DNA of 64,000 nt, from positions 1-64,000 of IMG/VR virus record IMGVR_UViG_3300008952_000012, one strand, 5' to 3'. Each line of letters begins with the position of its first letter. Position 1 is the first letter of the stretch. The stretch comes from a virus. The notes below the pieces were generated by a model, which had not been told where the DNA came from, did not search any database, and saw only the letters and a list, made by a program, of their open reading frames with translations. Of this stretch, positions 3,928 through 12,086 are shown piece by piece. A program made the translations under genes and the position numbers.

Positions 3928-5517
3928 TTAGACCAATGAGATGGCCTCGATCTCCTCCACAAACCTTTCTACGCTTTCGCCTTCAGGCTTATCGCCCTTA
4001 ACGAAGTTGGCAATGGTGTCGAAGACAGCATCGCTGAAGCCACCGACGTTGAGGATGTCCTCTCGGTCGTGGGCCTGCGTAGAATCATATGGTTGGATGT
4101 CAATGCACACCAACCGAGCGCTTGGATTGCGCTCCTTGTAGACGTTCCACTCCTGCATCACTGAGGTACCCTCTGACCGGTACCAATAGCCACGCTCCTC
4201 ACCCTCGGGGCGAACCCAAGACTCGTTATCACTAACGAACACAACGAGGTTACCGGTATGACCGGACTCATTGAGGTGACGAAGCGCTGAGGCGCAGTAG
4301 GTTCCACCGCCGCCATAAGAGGCGAGGAGCTTGGCGTTTTCGAAGACGCTTTCGCTTTGGAACTCCACTGAGTGAACAGCAGTATCGAACGGAACTACCG
4401 TGCAGCGGTTGCCCGCCTTGCGCTTGAAAGCGCTAGCAATCAGAGCAGCTACGTCAACACAGCGAACTGCGGACGTAGATCCCTTTCGGTACCCCGTAAT
4501 GGAACTTCCCATAGAGCCAGACACGTCTGGTAGGACGGCAATGTTACCCTCAACATCCGGGAGGTTCTCCATAGCGCAGTCGATAGCGCTTTCGAGCCCG
4601 TGCCGGATAGGAGCGGGGAGGTCATCAGACACGTTCGTGTACGCAGAGAAGATCTGGTACGGGAACACGCGAGACTTACGGATGGTCTCTTTGTCAGAGA
4701 GACGGGCCGCAACGACCTCAATGAGATCCGGATGCTCATCGAACACGTTGTGCCGAAGCGCTGTGTTCAAGTTCATCCGAGTCATATGCCATCCGGCGTG
4801 CCGGATAATGTCTGCCCAGTTGTCCGTGCTCAACTCTTTCGAGGTGAGCAGTTCAAACGGAACCCATGACACACCCTCAAAGGAAACGGCCTCGCCGTTC
4901 TTCCATCGAACGTAGTCACGAACTCGCATGGGCAAGTGCTCCATGTCGAAATCCTTGCCAATCAGGTAGGCGAACGTGGCGTTCTGGGCCGGGTCCGTTG
5001 CCTTCGGACGCACCATGTTGATGACGTCTCCGATGGAGGGCTTGTTGCCGACACTATCCCGAATAAGCTGCTCAGGTGTCCTAGAGGTGAGAAAGTTCTT
5101 CACCAGATTCTTGGGACCAGAGCCAAAGGACTTACGACCGGTGATACCGGAACGGACAACCTGGGCGAAGTTTCGCACCATCTTGCCGTTGTCGATAACA
5201 ACGGGGAAGACCTTCTTGAGAAGGTCAACGTCCTTAGAAGCGAGGTAGGCACACAGGACAGCGGGAGTGTCCTTCATGTGACCCTTGGTTCGGGCGAAGA
5301 TCGCAGCCTTGGCCGCGAACTCGTTATCTACCTCTTCCAACGTATTAAGGAAGCCAGCAAGCTGCTCCTCAGCCGTAGAGTACGCACCATCCGAAAAGGT
5401 TCCGGTTGTCACGTACTGTGCAATTCGATGTTTGGGCGGGAAGGCGTATGCCTCTCCGCCTGCCTTGTTGGTTGTATCAACAGGGCGGGTAGCCGTAGCA
5501 AACAAATCGGTATTCAT
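3928..5517 (-). CDS. rsr: Ro60/TROVE-vWA RNA-binding protein (Rsr-like)
   Basis: TROVE motifs HMKDTPA, DNGKMVRNF..VVRSG..GRKSFGS and RVFPYQ..AY; vWA MIDAS DVSGSM, GGGT, SDNESW, CIDIQPY..TQ, VGGFSD.VF; AGGAGG RBS. Confidence 0.95.
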   Translation of the reverse strand: MNTDLFATATRPVDTTNKAGGEAYAFPPKHRIAQYVTTGTFSDGAYSTAEEQLAGFLNTLEEVDNEFAAKAAIFARTKGHMKDTPAVLCAYLASKDVDLLKKVFPVVIDNGKMVRNFAQVVRSGITGRKSFGSGPKNLVKNFLTSRTPEQLIRDSVGNKPSIGDVINMVRPKATDPAQNATFAYLIGKDFDMEHLPMRVRDYVRWKNGEAVSFEGVSWVPFELLTSKELSTDNWADIIRHAGWHMTRMNLNTALRHNVFDEHPDLIEVVAARLSDKETIRKSRVFPYQIFSAYTNVSDDLPAPIRHGLESAIDCAMENLPDVEGNIAVLPDVSGSMGSSITGYRKGSTSAVRCVDVAALIASAFKRKAGNRCTVVPFDTAVHSVEFQSESVFENAKLLASYGGGGTYCASALRHLNESGHTGNLVVFVSDNESWVRPEGEERGYWYRSEGTSVMQEWNVYKERNPSARLVCIDIQPYDSTQAHDREDILNVGGFSDAVFDTIANFVKGDKPEGESVERFVEEIEAISLV

Positions 5518-5572
5518 GAGATCCTCCTAGATAGTTCATGACAAAGGTTGTGGTTATGGCGCAAAAAAAAGA

Positions 5573-5693
5573 CCCCGACAAGAGGTTGCTTAAGATGATC
5601 GGTGAGGTAGCAATGTTTCAAATGAATATTATTGAATAATACTCACCCACATTCTACTTCGTGCTTTGATGTAATCCTAAGCGGCATTCGGGG
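5573..5693 (-). ncRNA. Ro60-associated structured small RNA, copy C (121 nt, Y RNA-like)
   Basis: CCCC-GAAUGCC-GCUUAGGAU-UACAU-(72-nt loop)-AUCUUAAGC-AACCU-CUUGUC-GGGG, then a U tract. Confidence 0.75.
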
Positions 5694-5703
5694 AAAAGAA
5701 AAA

Positions 5704-5771
5704 GCTCCTGACAAGGTATTAGAGTAGTTGTATTTTGATTGGCAATGTAAACCACTCAGGCATTCAGGAGC
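5704..5771 (-). ncRNA. Ro60-associated structured small RNA, copy B (68 nt, Y RNA-like)
   Basis: GCUCCU-GAAUGCC-UGAGUGGUU-UACAU-(15)-AACUACUCU-AAUAC-CUUGUC-AGGAGC, then a U-rich spacer. Confidence 0.75.
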
Positions 5772-5781
5772 AAAATTAAAA

Positions 5782-5844
5782 GGCTGACAAGGAGTTGTTG
5801 AAGTTGTCATTATTTCGGTATGTAAACCTCAACGGCATTCAGCC
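5782..5844 (-). ncRNA. Ro60-associated structured small RNA, copy A (63 nt, Y RNA-like)
   Basis: GGCU-GAAUGCC-GUUGAGGUU-UACAU-(14)-AACUUCAAC-AACUC-CUUGUC-AGCC, then a U-rich spacer. Confidence 0.75.
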
Positions 5845-5925
5845 AAAACATAAATAACAGAAGGGCGACTCGACCCCCAGGAAGCAGATATATCACAGTA
5901 TTCTGTGAGCGTATATTAGTATACG

Positions 5926-5953
5926 TATATATCTACTCCCTAGGGGGAGTCAA
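5926..5953 (-). promoter_or_regulatory. Sigma70-type promoter for the RNA array and TROVE gene
   Basis: TTGACT-N16-TATATA on the minus strand, embedded in nested inverted repeats. Confidence 0.55.
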
Positions 5954-5965
5954 CAGGGAGGACCG

Positions 5966-6262
5966 CTACCGAAACATCGGGAGGCTTTTCTTAACCTCAA
6001 AGCGGGCGTCTCCGTGTAGCTTGCTCAACCAGAGCAGCCAACCACCAGAGAACTCTGTGGCCCACACCGACACGGTGCTTCGTCCATCCCCAGCCCGTAA
6101 TTCAATCCACTCAATGTCCTGGGGTGTGACACCGTGGTTCGCCCTGTTGTGTGGGCGAAAGTTAATGCCGTCTTCTGACAGCAGGTTAAGGTCTTGCGAG
6201 CTAATCTCGTTGATGAGACCTGCTCGCGGGATGTTAGAAATAACTTGGCCATAAATACTCAT
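5966..6262 (-). CDS. Hypothetical protein
   Basis: AAAGGAG RBS; downstream of promoter motif copy 2. Confidence 0.65.
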   Translation of the reverse strand: MSIYGQVISNIPRAGLINEISSQDLNLLSEDGINFRPHNRANHGVTPQDIEWIELRAGDGRSTVSVWATEFSGGWLLWLSKLHGDARFEVKKSLPMFR

Positions 6263-7964: not shown

Positions 7965-10900
7965 ATGCCAATTACCTCAACAGACGTTAGCAATATTATT
8001 GCTGGCCAGATTGGGATGTTCAGCGCTTCGTCGCAGTACTCCCAGGCCATCTCTGCTCAATACGGTTTTTCTCCATCTGGTTCGCCCTTCGGCGCTGACC
8101 CAAGAGCCAACGTAGCCCCCGGCAACTTGATGGGTGGCGCTGGAATGGCGAGTGCTGGTGCTCGTATGCCCGGTATGGCCATGGGTGGCTTGGGCATGGC
8201 CGCCATGTTCAATGCAGCCCCGCGCATGTTTGATCCGTTCACCTCCACCATGCACGCCGGGGCAATGGGCTATAGAGCCGCTGGTGTTGGTGGTGCCATT
8301 GGTATGGGAGGGATGACGGCCCTTGGTTATGGTGCCATGGCTGGTGCTGGTAGCTGGATGACTAACCAAATCGCTACCGGTGCCCAGAACCGTGGAATGA
8401 TCACGAGTGCAGCACAGGGCATGATGCCTAATCAAAGTGTTGGCGGCCTAAATGCTGTAGCTAACCAAGTGGAGAGTATGCACAGACAAGGCATGGGATC
8501 ATTGCGTGAGCTTACGGGTATCATGCAAGGCGGTGCCATGTCTGGTGCCGTTGATACTGGCTCACTCCAACGGTTCTCATCCTCATTCCAGAAGTTAGTA
8601 AATAATGTAAGACAGGTGGCAGTAGCCCTGAACACCACCATGACCCAAGCACAACAGGCGATGCAGCAAGTTGAGGGCATGGGTATTAGTAATAGTAACG
8701 CCGCCGGTTTTCTAGGTACAGCACGAGCATTCGGTGCCCAAACAGGTATCGGACCACAGCAAATGATGCAGTACGCAGCAGGTGGCGCATCATTCGCCAG
8801 AGGTGCTGGTATTGATAGATCTATAGGTGCCACAGGAGCCATTACCCAAGCAGGGATATACGGCTTGGCCAACAAGTGGGGCCAGCCAGGAATATTACCT
8901 GACTCGTACAGTAAACACATGCAAGGGGCATCACGGTTCCTCATGGGTAGGTCGGGTCGCGCAGTTTTAGGGGCAATGATGGACCCCAACACTGGAGAGC
9001 TAAACGCTGGGGTGGCTCGTCAGATGTCTGCTGGGTTATTAGACCGTAATGAGATCTTGTCGTTATCCAAGCAGAATCTTGGTGGCAACCTGGACATGTT
9101 CAACTCACGGCGGGGCGAGTTAGCCGCTGGGTTCCTATCTCAATATGGTCCCCATGCTGCCTCGGGCGCATTAGGGGCGATGACCTCAAATAGGGCGCAG
9201 CCCATGTCTACCCAAATGGCGCTCACCGGTTTAACCCGAAGCGACATCACGGGGATGAAGTCTCTCAACCAAAGTGCTGGCGCTCTCCAAAGTCAGTTGG
9301 TCGCTGAAGCTCAGCGTGGATTCCGAGAGGGCAGCACACAACAATCACTCGGCGGTGCTCTTGGTCAGGCATGGGAGAATTTGATCAAGCCGATCCGAGA
9401 TGAGTTCAGGCAACTAGGCGCTGGCATGACCAAGTCCATGCAAGGCGCACTCCAGAGCATGACCGAAGAGTTTGTGCGCAGCCCACCTCCTAACGCCGAT
9501 CCCAGATCACGGATGATGCAGTTTGAAAAAGCACTCACCGGTTCTGGCCGTGACGAGTGGAGCCAGGGTGGTAGATATCGAGGACTCTCCGGTGGGCTTG
9601 GCTTGTATGACTCATCCCCCACAGGAGTACTATCATCTGTGCTACCCCAAGGATTCCGTATCGGGCGGATGTCCCCAGGCACATCGCTTGATGAATTATC
9701 AGGGTATGGGCTTGGTACCGAGTCTTGGAACCCATACCTGACTGGTGGCGTTGCAGCATCTCGCGCCACATACCAAGGACGAAACGCTCTTGGGTGGTTA
9801 GGTCGAGGCGCAAATGAAGTAGGTAGAGGAGTCGCTGCTTTCGGTGGAACCCCCCAAGCAACTGGCTTTTTAGGGTCTGGCGGCATTGGTGGCCCCGGCT
9901 CTTGGATGCGTGGGCTTGGTAACACAATAAGTGGTGCGGGCTGGGCTGCCCGTGGTCTTGGGTTTGCTACCAGAACTCTAGCACCACTGGGTATTGCATA
10001 TGATGCAGTAACAAATACAGGCCCCGCCGCAATGCGACGAGCGGGTTACTCCCCAGTCACTCAAGGAGCAATCACAGGCTCACAGCGAAATATGATGGAG
10101 AGCCTCGGTCAGGCTGGCGTCTTTGGTGATGACCCATTCGAAGACATTAAGACCAAAGACATCAGTGGCGAAACACCTCCAGGCATGACTCCTCTCGGAG
10201 GGTTCCTCCCAGGCAGCGCGCAAGGCGGCGGTGGGTTTGGTACGCAGAGATTTATTAAAGGCAAAGCGATTGCTGCTGCGAAGGCGGTCTTCTCTCCCCA
10301 GTACAAGAACAAGGTTCTCAAGAGGATCGGGGGCAACATGGCCCCGGTTCAGGAAGCCGTGAGAAAGGCTAAAGAGAAGTACGAGGCAGCGAATGGTGCG
10401 GGAACATGGTCGTCACTAGACCCAGGCGCTCAGGTAACAAACATTACGGAGGAGCTTCACAAGAATCCTGACAAGAAGCTCCAGTCGCTTACCACTGCTG
10501 ATGTATTTTCCCTTGCTAAGGATGTTGGCGGCGCAATCACCAACATGCCCCAAGCGATGGACGATACGTTCAACCCGGACAAGGTACGGGAAGATACAGC
10601 GAACGAGCTTCAGCAGTTTAGTGATGTTGCGTCGGGCGTTGCTCTTTCAACAGGAAAGCAGAAGGTAAAGGATTGGCAGAACGCGGATCTAAATAGATTA
10701 GGAAAGACTCTGCACAGCAAGAACAAGGGCACCGCAGCAGGCATCATATCGCTCACCGAGCAAGGGGAAGAGAATAAGCTTAAGCTGGACCAACTTACTT
10801 TCGGCGCTGAGGGGAACTTTGCGGACCAACTCCGAGCGGGCAACATCTCATTAAACACTGGGGCAATCAGAGGGCTTGTTACCAAAGAAGATATCGAATC

Positions 10901-12086
10901 TGGGAAGTTTCATGGTGCCGGTGACCTTGCTTTGGGCAAAGGCAGCGATGAGGCCACGGCTCACCAATCCCAAATAGCCTCACACATCGCTGCCGACATG
11001 AACATGTCTACCAAACTCGCAGGCTTCCAAAAGCGTTGGAGAGATGCCAAGGAGAACGGAGATGTAACGAAGATGCAGGAGATCAAAGATGAGTGGTCTA
11101 GGTATAAGTACAATCAGGATGGGTACAGACAGGCATTCAAAGGGACAATGGGTGAGGACTACAGCCCCAACAGGGATGTCCTTGCTGAGCAGGAATTAAA
11201 TGATAATAACCTGACCAAAGCCGCCGCACTTCAAGACTTATCTCAGGCAACCGCGTATTGGGATAATGCAAGATCCGACTTTAAGTCTGAGCAGGGCCAG
11301 AATCGGATGTCTAACATCAATACGCAGGCATCACGATTGTCTGGCGGAACGAGCGCAGCGACGACGGCGCTTGGTGGCATCATGAAAACGTGGCATGGGG
11401 CCGACTCTGCCCAAGGCACGCTTCCGAAAGGCGACCCACACCTGACTGCTAGGAAGCAGTTAATTAAGCATGTGCAACAAAGGCTTCAGGGGGGAATGGG
11501 GAACGCCACGGCAGCAGACATCGAACAGGCTGTTGGGCAGGGCGGCGTGATGTCCCTGGATGATGTCAAAATCATGCAGCAAGAGTTGGCGGCATCTAAT
11601 ATGCCTGGGCATCAAGACTTAGCCCACAGTCTTGGTAGCTTCATTAAGACTAGAGAGATCACAAGAACCAAAGAAGGTAAGAAGAGAACAGCCAAGCAGG
11701 TTCTTAAGAGGTCGGGCATTGACACCGGAAAGCTTGGGCCGGAAGACATCAAGTTCCTTGAAAACAAGTCAGATGTGATGTCTACAAGGCTGGAGGGTGA
11801 GTTCAACAAGATGGCCATATCGGCATTAAGAGCCACCTTAGATCATGAACCCACTAAGGCACAGATGGACGAGAGATCTATAGCCATTCAGACAGCCCTT
11901 AGAAAGGGTAATATGAATGAGTATGAAAACCTTGTGAGCACTACAGGCGCACCGCATGGTGTTGGCTCAACACAGTCTGGTAAGAAGGCTGGTGCTATGA
12001 CCGCGCAAGCGGGGGAGTTCTCGAAAGCAATGGCAGCCGCAACAACTGCTGCGAACTCCTTCGCATCCAACGTTGGCAAGAAGTAG
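7965..12086 (+). CDS. Tape-measure-like virion protein (1373 aa)
   Basis: Long Gly/Ala/Met/Gln-rich helical protein with hydrophobic Gly-rich segments, located at the head of the tail/baseplate module. Confidence 0.6.
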   Translation: MPITSTDVSNIIAGQIGMFSASSQYSQAISAQYGFSPSGSPFGADPRANVAPGNLMGGAGMASAGARMPGMAMGGLGMAAMFNAAPRMFDPFTSTMHAGAMGYRAAGVGGAIGMGGMTALGYGAMAGAGSWMTNQIATGAQNRGMITSAAQGMMPNQSVGGLNAVANQVESMHRQGMGSLRELTGIMQGGAMSGAVDTGSLQRFSSSFQKLVNNVRQVAVALNTTMTQAQQAMQQVEGMGISNSNAAGFLGTARAFGAQTGIGPQQMMQYAAGGASFARGAGIDRSIGATGAITQAGIYGLANKWGQPGILPDSYSKHMQGASRFLMGRSGRAVLGAMMDPNTGELNAGVARQMSAGLLDRNEILSLSKQNLGGNLDMFNSRRGELAAGFLSQYGPHAASGALGAMTSNRAQPMSTQMALTGLTRSDITGMKSLNQSAGALQSQLVAEAQRGFREGSTQQSLGGALGQAWENLIKPIRDEFRQLGAGMTKSMQGALQSMTEEFVRSPPPNADPRSRMMQFEKALTGSGRDEWSQGGRYRGLSGGLGLYDSSPTGVLSSVLPQGFRIGRMSPGTSLDELSGYGLGTESWNPYLTGGVAASRATYQGRNALGWLGRGANEVGRGVAAFGGTPQATGFLGSGGIGGPGSWMRGLGNTISGAGWAARGLGFATRTLAPLGIAYDAVTNTGPAAMRRAGYSPVTQGAITGSQRNMMESLGQAGVFGDDPFEDIKTKDISGETPPGMTPLGGFLPGSAQGGGGFGTQRFIKGKAIAAAKAVFSPQYKNKVLKRIGGNMAPVQEAVRKAKEKYEAANGAGTWSSLDPGAQVTNITEELHKNPDKKLQSLTTADVFSLAKDVGGAITNMPQAMDDTFNPDKVREDTANELQQFSDVASGVALSTGKQKVKDWQNADLNRLGKTLHSKNKGTAAGIISLTEQGEENKLKLDQLTFGAEGNFADQLRAGNISLNTGAIRGLVTKEDIESGKFHGAGDLALGKGSDEATAHQSQIASHIAADMNMSTKLAGFQKRWRDAKENGDVTKMQEIKDEWSRYKYNQDGYRQAFKGTMGEDYSPNRDVLAEQELNDNNLTKAAALQDLSQATAYWDNARSDFKSEQGQNRMSNINTQASRLSGGTSAATTALGGIMKTWHGADSAQGTLPKGDPHLTARKQLIKHVQQRLQGGMGNATAADIEQAVGQGGVMSLDDVKIMQQELAASNMPGHQDLAHSLGSFIKTREITRTKEGKKRTAKQVLKRSGIDTGKLGPEDIKFLENKSDVMSTRLEGEFNKMAISALRATLDHEPTKAQMDERSIAIQTALRKGNMNEYENLVSTTGAPHGVGSTQSGKKAGAMTAQAGEFSKAMAAATTAANSFASNVGKK

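What the first reader, a model, noticed from the sequence alone, without database searches (positions are those of the whole stretch)
5573..5844. Tandem array of three covarying Y-RNA-like small RNAs with a non-canonical conserved core
Seen: three units in the same register: stem1-GAAUGCC-[9-nt stem2]-UACAU-loop(14, 15, 72 nt)-[stem2']-AANNN-CUUGUC-stem1'. Both stems differ in sequence between copies yet stay paired (compensatory changes), while the unpaired motifs are invariant. Units are separated by exact 10-nt U-rich spacers (UUUUAAUUUU, UUUUUCUUUU) and end in a U tract. Known: Y RNAs pair their 5' and 3' ends, end in oligo-U and carry CUUG(N)C on the 3' strand. Here the 5' strand is GAAUGCC rather than the bulged-C GNCCGA, and no tRNA-like T-arm is visible. 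Inference: a distinct Ro60-RNA class in an array, with variable loops as cargo or guide segments; the U tracts may be both processing sites and leaky terminators setting a high RNA:protein ratio.
Basis: partly seen in the sequence, partly recalled or inferred. Interest (0 to 1): 0.85.

Follow-up and report, generated by a model that had tools for sequence, protein, structure and literature searches.

The report
Phage Ro60 gene with three Y RNAs
Three small structured RNA genes sit in a row just before a phage gene for the Ro60 RNA-binding ring protein; they are real, but they are short, tRNA-domain-less members of the already known bacterial Y RNA family (YrlA/YrlB type), so the finding is ordinary.

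Summary
On the minus strand, three units (63, 68 and 121 nt; 5844-5782, 5771-5704, 5693-5573) share the layout stem1 / AUGCC / 9-bp stem2 / UACAU / loop / stem2' / 5 nt / CUUG / stem1'. They lie 45 nt upstream of a TROVE/Ro60 gene (3928-5517) in an uncultured marine phage.

The core is not "non-canonical". It is the consensus handle of Rfam YrlA (RF02553: CgaAUGCuu...CUAc...cUuGucG). It also matches the two motifs published for bacterial YrlA, GNCGAAN0-1G and YUAY.

A covariance model of the unit finds 187 copies in 80 bacterial rsr loci, one to six per locus, nearly all just downstream of rsr. A model built only from those bacterial copies picks out exactly the three window units (E 1e-12 to 3e-11). 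Covariation is strong: all 17 pairs show double changes.

The window's units lack the tRNA-like effector domain of YrlA. They are therefore hairpin-type, YrlB-like Y RNAs, like Yrl1 and Yrl2 upstream of the Ro60 gene of Thermus phage phiLo.

The guide-loop and leaky-terminator ideas gained no support. This scan has reported similar phage Ro60-plus-RNA arrays on other DNA. Verdict: new member of a known kind, low interest.

The parts
5782..5844 (-). Unit 1, 63-nt hairpin-type Y RNA: stem1 GGCU(GA), AUGCC, 9-bp stem2, UACAU, 14-nt loop, stem2', AACUC, CUUG, (UC)AGCC
   Evidence: Sequence; fold; R1 72.5 bits; bacterial-only model R2 53.3 bits, E 1e-12
5704..5771 (-). Unit 2, 68-nt hairpin-type Y RNA with the same core, different stem sequences and a 15-nt loop
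   Evidence: R2 48.5 bits, E 3e-11
5573..5693 (-). Unit 3, 121-nt Y RNA with the same core and a 72-nt structured insert that begins UACAUCAAAG. The insert is not tRNA-like.
   Evidence: It was not in the R1 seed, yet R1 gives 50.9 bits and R2 51.7 bits, E 3e-12. The same long-unit type occurs in L049 and L005. No RF02553 or tRNA match.
5772..5781 (-). Spacer UUUUAAUUUU between units 1 and 2; a likely single-stranded processing site
   Evidence: Sequence; the processing role is inferred
5694..5703 (-). Spacer UUUUUCUUUU between units 2 and 3
   Evidence: Sequence; the processing role is inferred
5562..5572 (-). U tract UCUUUUUUUUG after unit 3, 45 nt before the TROVE start codon
   Evidence: Sequence; flagged terminator-like with a weak 5-bp stem; not conserved as a U run in L049
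3928..5517 (-). Ro60/Rsr (TROVE + vWA) gene, 529 aa, the presumed protein partner
   Evidence: Pfam vWA_Ro60 7.6e-8 and TROVE 3.5e-7; phrog_850 RNA-binding protein 1e-29; best PDB relative is the Thermus phage phiLo Ro60, 9KOP/9L5Y, E 3.5e-13; 44-51% identical to 80 bacterial relatives
5866..5953 (-). Y-shaped long hairpin just upstream of the array: a stem of about 26 bp capped by two small hairpins
   Evidence: Fold -48.5 kcal/mol, z -7.8. The same shape with a different sequence lies at the same place in L049, z -6.7. It lies on the same 388-nt contig as the three units in an RNA library. Role unknown.

Best explanation
The three units are genes for small noncoding Y RNAs of the bacterial rsr-linked family. 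Each carries the YrlA-type Ro60-binding handle: a terminal 5'/3' stem ending in G-A/U-C, the unpaired AUGCC and CUUG, and an anticodon-stem-like 9-bp helix with a conserved G.U pair followed by UACAU. In place of the tRNA-like effector domain they have a short loop (units 1 and 2) or a non-tRNA hairpin insert (unit 3). That makes them hairpin-type, YrlB-like Y RNAs. The most likely mechanism is inferred from the family, not shown here. The array is transcribed together with the Ro60 gene 45 nt downstream. The precursor is cut in the pyrimidine-rich single-stranded spacers. Each mature RNA binds the phage Ro60 ring through its handle. It then gates access of other RNAs to the ring and, through its loop or insert, may tether Ro60 to a host partner such as PNPase, as shown for Deinococcus Yrn1 and in vitro for the phiLo phage Yrl RNAs.
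For: (1) Anatomy and adjacency: three same-strand units lie directly upstream of a TROVE+vWA gene.
(2) Handle identity: the RF02553 YrlA consensus reads CgaAUGCuu-stem-CUAc ... stem-aaAaA-cUuGucG. It aligns full length (E 1e-11 and 2e-8, below the gathering score) to tRNA-like units in L011 that carry the exact window core. L062 has two tRNA-like units and one short unit with the same core in one array.
(3) Published motifs: PMC4201824 gives GNCGAAN0-1G near the 5' end, also present in Salmonella YrlB, and a conserved YUAY at nt 22-25. Preprint 10.1101/312249 describes a Ro60-binding module joined by 5-nt unpaired loops to an anticodon-like stem with a conserved UA.
(4) Family size: R1 finds 187 units in 80 bacterial rsr loci, same strand, mostly just downstream of rsr. 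Among the best 150, 97 are short and 53 long.
(5) Independent recognition: model R2, built from bacterial units only, finds exactly the three window units (E 1e-12, 3e-12, 3e-11) and nothing else in 64 kb.
(6) Covariation. Phage set: 84.7% of cells paired, 15 of 17 pairs with double changes, score 0.728 against 0.21 shuffled and at most 0.16 slid. Bacterial set: 88.9% paired, 17 of 17 pairs, score 0.626 against 0.185 shuffled and at most 0.136 slid.
(7) Arrays of two or three units flank TROVE in phage relatives, upstream in L049 and L005 and downstream in L057, L059 and L062.
(8) Conservation between strains: one RNA-library contig of a 95-99% variant covers 5574-5961 with 5 differences in 388 nt. 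The four that fall within the units (the fifth lies upstream of unit 1) are in loops or spacers. The adjacent TROVE 5' coding sequence has 23 differences in about 300 nt.
(9) Precedents: M. smegmatis YrlA and YrlB are processed from one precursor upstream of rsr. Phage phiLo has Yrl1 and Yrl2 upstream of its Ro60 gene, and both are bound in EMSA.
Against: There is no direct evidence here of discrete RNA species, of their ends, or of binding to the TROVE protein. The RNA-library data are assembled contigs and may include DNA. None of the three units has the tRNA-like domain, whereas PMC4201824 reports at least one such RNA in each species it examined. Units 1 and 2 read UGAA rather than CGAA; this is a compensated U-A pair in stem1. 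The same RNA module occurs in phages in which no Ro60-like gene was found, three of them estimated complete, so the partner need not always be a phage-encoded Ro60. Alignments A3 and A5 were fitted to the model's structure, which favours pairing counts.
Confidence: 0.85

Rival explanations
1. The units act without the phage Ro60. They would be phage small RNAs that work on host factors (host Rsr, PNPase, tRNA-processing or modification enzymes), and their place beside TROVE would be only one of several contexts.
For: Units with the same core lie inside phage tRNA arrays, directly next to tRNA genes (L014, L015, L024, L028, L039). Three phage records estimated 100% complete (holding L009, L015, L039) gave no match to TROVE, vWA_Ro60, DUF2828 or the window's protein.
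Against: In this window, in phage relatives and in 80 bacterial loci the units lie beside the Ro60 gene on the same strand. Phages without the gene may use the host's Rsr, which still makes Ro60 the partner. The Pfam TROVE model is weak on phage homologues: true ones scored E 0.0016 to 5e-7. The DUF2828 search had no positive control.
Confidence: 0.08
2. The array is a cis-acting leader of the TROVE mRNA, a series of terminator or attenuator hairpins that sets Ro60 expression, and does not produce stable trans-acting RNAs.
For: The units lie in the 5' leader, each is followed by a U-rich tract, and no promoter-like site separates the array from the gene 45 nt downstream.
Against: In relatives and in bacteria the same module lies downstream of the Ro60 gene or in tRNA arrays, where it cannot be a leader. 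The U run after unit 3 is absent in L049. Terminators do not keep invariant internal-loop bases. The handle equals that of YrlA, an RNA shown to be bound by Rsr.
Confidence: 0.04
3. The units are decaying remnants of YrlA genes that lost their tRNA-like domain and no longer function.
For: All three lack the T, acceptor-like and D arms.
Against: Both stems are kept by compensatory changes between copies and between orthologues. Unit 1 differs from L049 unit 1 by two double changes in stem2. Every invariant handle base is intact. The strain variant changes only loops and spacers within the units. Short units outnumber long ones beside bacterial rsr, 97 to 53.
Confidence: 0.03

Closest known systems
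Bacterial YrlA (Rfam RF02553; Chen et al. 2014, PMC4201824; Wang et al. 2018 preprint 10.1101/312249)
   Same: The Ro60-binding handle is the same: a terminal stem with (G)NCGAAUG on the 5' side and CUUGUC on the 3' side, 5-nt unpaired linkers, an anticodon-stem-like helix followed by a conserved YUAY (here UUAC), and a position on the same strand within 2 kb of the Ro60 gene.
   Different: The tRNA-like effector module (T arm, acceptor-like hairpin, D arm) is missing. It is replaced by a 14-15-nt loop or a 72-nt non-tRNA insert. RF02553 does not score the units even at E 10.
Hairpin-type second Y RNAs: Salmonella YrlB, Deinococcus Yrn2 (PMC4201824)
   Same: These are Ro60-associated RNAs encoded next to rsr alongside other Y RNAs. 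[quoted passage not shown]
   Different: The published loops are pyrimidine-rich, whereas the loops here are A-rich. Here all three RNAs are of the non-tRNA type.
Yrl1 and Yrl2 of Thermus phage phiLo with phiRo60 (PMC12135203; PDB 9KOP, 9L5Y)
   Same: A phage-encoded Ro60 with Y-RNA-like hairpins just upstream of its gene. The RNAs have a 5'-3' stem flanking an internal loop with a CGAA motif. phiRo60 is the closest solved relative of the window's protein, E 3.5e-13.
   Different: There are three units rather than two. Units 1 and 2 read UGAA. I did not test whether the phiLo RNAs share the UACAU and CUUGUC elements. Binding and PNPase recruitment were shown for phiLo, not here.
Metazoan Y RNAs (Rfam Y_RNA) with Ro60
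   Same: The 5' and 3' ends pair, the 3' strand carries CUUG, the RNA has a U-rich 3' tail, and the partner is Ro60.
   Different: The bulged-C helix GGUCCGA/CUUGACC is absent, there is no Rfam match, and the RNAs are not Pol III transcripts.

Membership tests
YrlA (Rfam RF02553) | Terminal 5'/3' stem carrying GNCGAAN0-1G near the 5' end | tested here: met
   Unit 3 reads CCCGAAUG, unit 1 GCUGAAUG and unit 2 CCUGAAUG. The C-to-U change is compensated in stem1. The bacterial consensus cggGgCGAAUGCC aligns to all three units.
YrlA (Rfam RF02553) | Conserved YUAY after the anticodon-like stem, and CUUGUC on the 3' strand | tested here: met
   UUAC(AU) and CUUGUC are present in all three units. 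They match RF02553 consensus positions CUAc and cUuGuc.
YrlA (Rfam RF02553) | Central tRNA-like domain (T arm, acceptor-like hairpin, D arm) | tested here: not met
   No RF02553 or tRNA match at E up to 10 in 5400-6000. ARAGORN finds nothing in the window. Relatives L011 and L062 do have this domain.
YrlA (Rfam RF02553) | Score at or above the Rfam gathering threshold (69 bits) | tested here: not met
   No match in the whole window.
Bacterial Y RNAs in the broad sense (Ro60/Rsr-associated ncRNAs, including YrlB and Yrn2) | Encoded close to a Ro60 orthologue and on the same strand | tested here: met
   The units end 45 nt upstream of the TROVE start codon on the minus strand.
Bacterial Y RNAs in the broad sense (Ro60/Rsr-associated ncRNAs, including YrlB and Yrn2) | Physical association with Ro60, and Ro60-dependent accumulation | not testable with these tools
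   Needs EMSA or co-IP and a deletion strain.
Bacterial Y RNAs in the broad sense (Ro60/Rsr-associated ncRNAs, including YrlB and Yrn2) | Expressed as discrete small RNAs | tested here: inconclusive
   One metatranscriptome contig of 388 nt covers 5574-5961. Contigs show no ends or strand, and the library may contain DNA.
Metazoan Y RNA (Rfam Y_RNA) | Conserved bulged-C helix GGUCCGA/CUUGACC | tested here: not met
   The 5' strand reads (C/U)GAAUGCC, and there is no Rfam match.

The most novel reading that the evidence does not exclude
Handle-only mini Y RNAs may be a functionally separate class. They could serve as pure gates or decoys that load or block Ro60 rings, the phage's own or the host's Rsr, without recruiting the tRNA-directed effector. 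A phage that encodes only such RNAs, and no tRNA-like YrlA, might use them to redirect or silence host RNA surveillance during infection. The presence of the same module in tRNA arrays of phages with no detectable Ro60 gene would fit a role against host Rsr.
Probability: 0.1. Interest if true: 0.55.

Novelty: new member of a known kind. Interest (0 to 1): 0.25.

Why it matters
On its own it matters little. It adds one uncultured marine phage to the list of Ro60 genes accompanied by Y RNAs, and it corrects the impression that the core is new. Two by-products are more useful. First, a compact covariance model of the Y-RNA handle (63-67 positions) detects the short, tRNA-less Y RNAs that Rfam's YrlA model misses. 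Second, it shows that arrays of one to six such units are the rule beside rsr in many bacterial phyla and in phages. These could help annotate Ro60 loci, and they show that hairpin-type Y RNAs outnumber the tRNA-like ones.

Tried and rejected
- **Rfam.** Rfam at gathering thresholds over the whole window, and at E up to 10 over 5400-6000, gave no Y_RNA or YrlA match, only chance miRNA and snoRNA hits.
- **Exact-pattern scan.** The scan of viral contigs gave 46 loci, about the number I estimated by hand for chance at 18 fixed bases. Only about 14 had both stems, and the rest were dropped.
- **Named phages with Ro-like genes.** Myxococcus phage Mx1 (the closest named phage, TROVE 45% identical), Mycobacterium phage Myrna, Gordonia phage Trax, Streptomyces phage Gilson, Vibrio phage SRILMA and phage csAssE-Sib gave no significant R1 or R2 match within 4 kb of their Ro-like genes. 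The handle is therefore not universal among phage Ro60 loci at this sensitivity.
- **Guide hypothesis.** The reverse complements of the unit 1 and unit 2 loops occur nowhere else in the 134.5-kb record at up to 2 mismatches. Host targets could not be tested because the host is unknown.
- **Promoter scan.** No sigma-70-like site was found on the minus strand upstream of or inside the array. A TTGACT-16-TATATA that I read by eye at about 5952-5925 fails the scan's rule.
- **Metatranscriptome depth.** The array contig has depth 5.8 and the TROVE 5' contigs depth 2. Contigs cannot rank expression and DNA may be present, so this was not used as evidence.
- **Phages lacking Ro60.** No TROVE, vWA_Ro60, DUF2828 or protein match was found in five records. 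The DUF2828 search and the protein search had no positive control.
- **Neighbouring ORFs.** They gave no Pfam or PHROG matches.
- **Supplements.** The supplementary files of PMC4201824 were not held, so I could not compare directly with published YrlB or phage YrlA sequences.

Full report
**What is there.**
The window is part of a 134.5-kb uncultured virus record, linear and estimated 75% complete. On the minus strand, gene 3928-5517 encodes a 529-aa TROVE + vWA protein.
- Pfam: vWA_Ro60 7.6e-8 and TROVE 3.5e-7.
- PHROGs: phrog_850 "RNA-binding protein", 1e-29.
- Closest solved relative by sequence: the Ro60 of Thermus phage phiLo, 9KOP/9L5Y, E 3.5e-13.
- It is 44-51% identical to Rsr-like proteins of Acidobacteriota, Myxococcota, Verrucomicrobiota, Planctomycetota and Burkholderiales.

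Two 10-nt U-rich spacers separate them, and a U run follows the last, 45 nt before the start codon. Each unit folds alone into the proposed shape, and so does the whole region.

One correction applies. The G-A of GAAUGCC pairs with the U-C of CUUGUC and covaries. The invariant unpaired bases are therefore AUGC(C), UACAU and CU(U/C)G.

**Is it more than chance, and is it a family?**
An exact-pattern scan of viral contigs returned 46 loci. That is about the number I estimated by hand for chance, and only about 14 had both stems paired, each with a different stem sequence.

From 18 such units I built covariance model R1. It recovered unit 3, which was not in the seed (50.9 bits). It also found further copies with variant cores: AAAUGCC with CUUGUU, and GAAUACC.

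On 31 phage units, 84.7% of cells pair and 15 of 17 pairs show changes on both sides. The covariation score is 0.728, against 0.21 for shuffles and at most 0.16 for slid partners. Stem2 holds a conserved G.U pair (25 of 31).

**What it is.**
Some family members carry a long insert between UACAU and stem2'. In L011 and L062 this insert consists of a T arm (GGUUCGA), a hairpin and a D arm (UAGCUCAGU), which is the circularly permuted tRNA-like module of YrlA. Rfam YrlA (RF02553) aligns full length to these units, below its gathering score of 69 bits but with E values of 1e-11, 2e-8, 3e-7 and 0.012.

The printed RF02553 consensus reads CgaAUGCuu - stem - CUAc ... stem - aaAaA - cUuGucG. That is the window's core.

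The literature says the same:
- YrlA RNAs share GNCGAAN0-1G near the 5' end, a motif also present in Salmonella YrlB, and a conserved YUAY at nt 22-25 (PMC4201824).
- The Ro60-binding module is joined by 5-nt unpaired loops to an anticodon-like stem with a conserved UA (10.1101/312249).

**How common it is.**
R1 finds 187 units in 80 bacterial rsr loci. Nearly all lie on the rsr strand just downstream of the gene, one to six per locus. Among the best 150, 97 are short (under 85 nt) and 53 long. Covariation on this bacterial set is equally strong: 88.9% paired, 17 of 17 pairs with double changes, score 0.626 against 0.185 shuffled.

Model R2, built only from the bacterial units, picks out exactly the three window units (E 1e-12, 3e-12, 3e-11) and nothing else in the window.

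Phage relatives of the TROVE gene also carry two or three units. They lie upstream in L049 (70% identical protein) and L005, and downstream in L057, L059 and L062. Unit 1 and its L049 orthologue differ by two compensatory double changes in stem2.

**What the window's units lack.**
None of the three has the tRNA-like module: no RF02553 or tRNA match at E up to 10, nothing from ARAGORN, and no tRNA in the whole record. Units 1 and 2 are handle plus a 14-15-nt A-rich loop. Unit 3 carries a 72-nt hairpin insert beginning UACAUCAAAG, a type shared with L049 and L005.

They are therefore not YrlA in the strict sense. They are hairpin-type Y RNAs with the YrlA handle. The closest described cases are Salmonella YrlB and Deinococcus Yrn2 (PMC4201824), and Yrl1 and Yrl2 upstream of the Ro60 gene of Thermus phage phiLo. 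The phiLo RNAs were bound by that protein in EMSA and formed ternary complexes with host PNPase (PMC12135203).

**How it most likely works (inferred).**
- The array and the Ro60 gene are probably one transcription unit. Only 45 nt and no promoter-like site separate them.
- The precursor is probably cut in the pyrimidine-rich spacers, as M. smegmatis YrlA and YrlB are processed from one precursor upstream of rsr.
- Each RNA would bind the Ro60 ring through its handle. It would then gate the ring and possibly tether it to a partner through its loop or insert.

The leaky-terminator idea is not excluded. However, the U run after unit 3 is replaced by AUUUCUCUCUC in L049.

The guide idea found no support within the phage record.

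**Expression and conservation.**
One marine or vent metatranscriptome holds a 388-nt contig that covers 5574-5961. These are contigs, so this is not proof of transcription. That strain variant has 5 differences in those 388 nt. The four that fall within the units (the fifth lies upstream of unit 1) are in loops or spacers. The adjacent TROVE 5' coding sequence has 23 differences in about 300 nt. This pattern fits selection on the RNA structures.

**Open point.**
Units with the same core also lie between tRNA genes in phage tRNA arrays. Three phage records estimated complete gave no Ro60-like match. These phages may rely on host Rsr, or the RNA may have a Ro60-independent role.

**Earlier notes of this scan.**
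The scan has already reported phage Ro60-like genes with arrays of small RNAs sharing one handle on other DNA. I treated those notes as leads only.

**Verdict.**
This is a real, well-supported feature, and an ordinary new member of the known rsr-linked Y RNA family.

Noticed in passing
window 5866-5953 (-); L049:3262-3352 (-): A Y-shaped long hairpin lies just upstream of the RNA array: a stem of about 26 bp capped by two small hairpins, -48.5 kcal/mol, z -7.8. The 70%-related phage L049 has the same shape at the same place with a different sequence (z -6.7). It could be an RNase III processing site or a fourth structured RNA.
   Followed up: partly
L014:11723-11794 (-), L015:3167-3226 (-), L024:2222-2294 (+), L028:4350-4416 (-), L039:2669-2730 (+): Y-RNA handle units lie between tRNA genes inside phage tRNA arrays, several per array in L028 and L024. 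The phage records holding L009, L015 and L039, all estimated complete, gave no TROVE, vWA_Ro60 or DUF2828 match.
   Followed up: partly
L115:4629-5231 (+) (Undibacterium sp.), L077, L093, L083: Bacterial rsr genes are followed by tandem arrays of up to six handle-bearing units. Short tRNA-less units outnumber tRNA-like ones, 97 to 53 among the best 150. Rfam's YrlA model does not cover the short ones.
   Followed up: partly
L011:5317-5443 (-), L011:6333-6477 (-), L062:4732-5017 (+): Phage YrlA-like RNAs with clear T and D arms score 30-56 bits against RF02553, below its 69-bit gathering score. Standard Rfam annotation would therefore miss them.
   Followed up: yes
window 7965-12086 (+): A 1373-aa ORF close to the locus has no PHROG match, and none of the small neighbouring ORFs has a Pfam or PHROG match.
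   Followed up: no
L013:458-817 (+): A phage contig that carries a handle unit and a TROVE gene also encodes a tmRNA (RF00023, 68.9 bits) next to its tRNA array.
   Followed up: no
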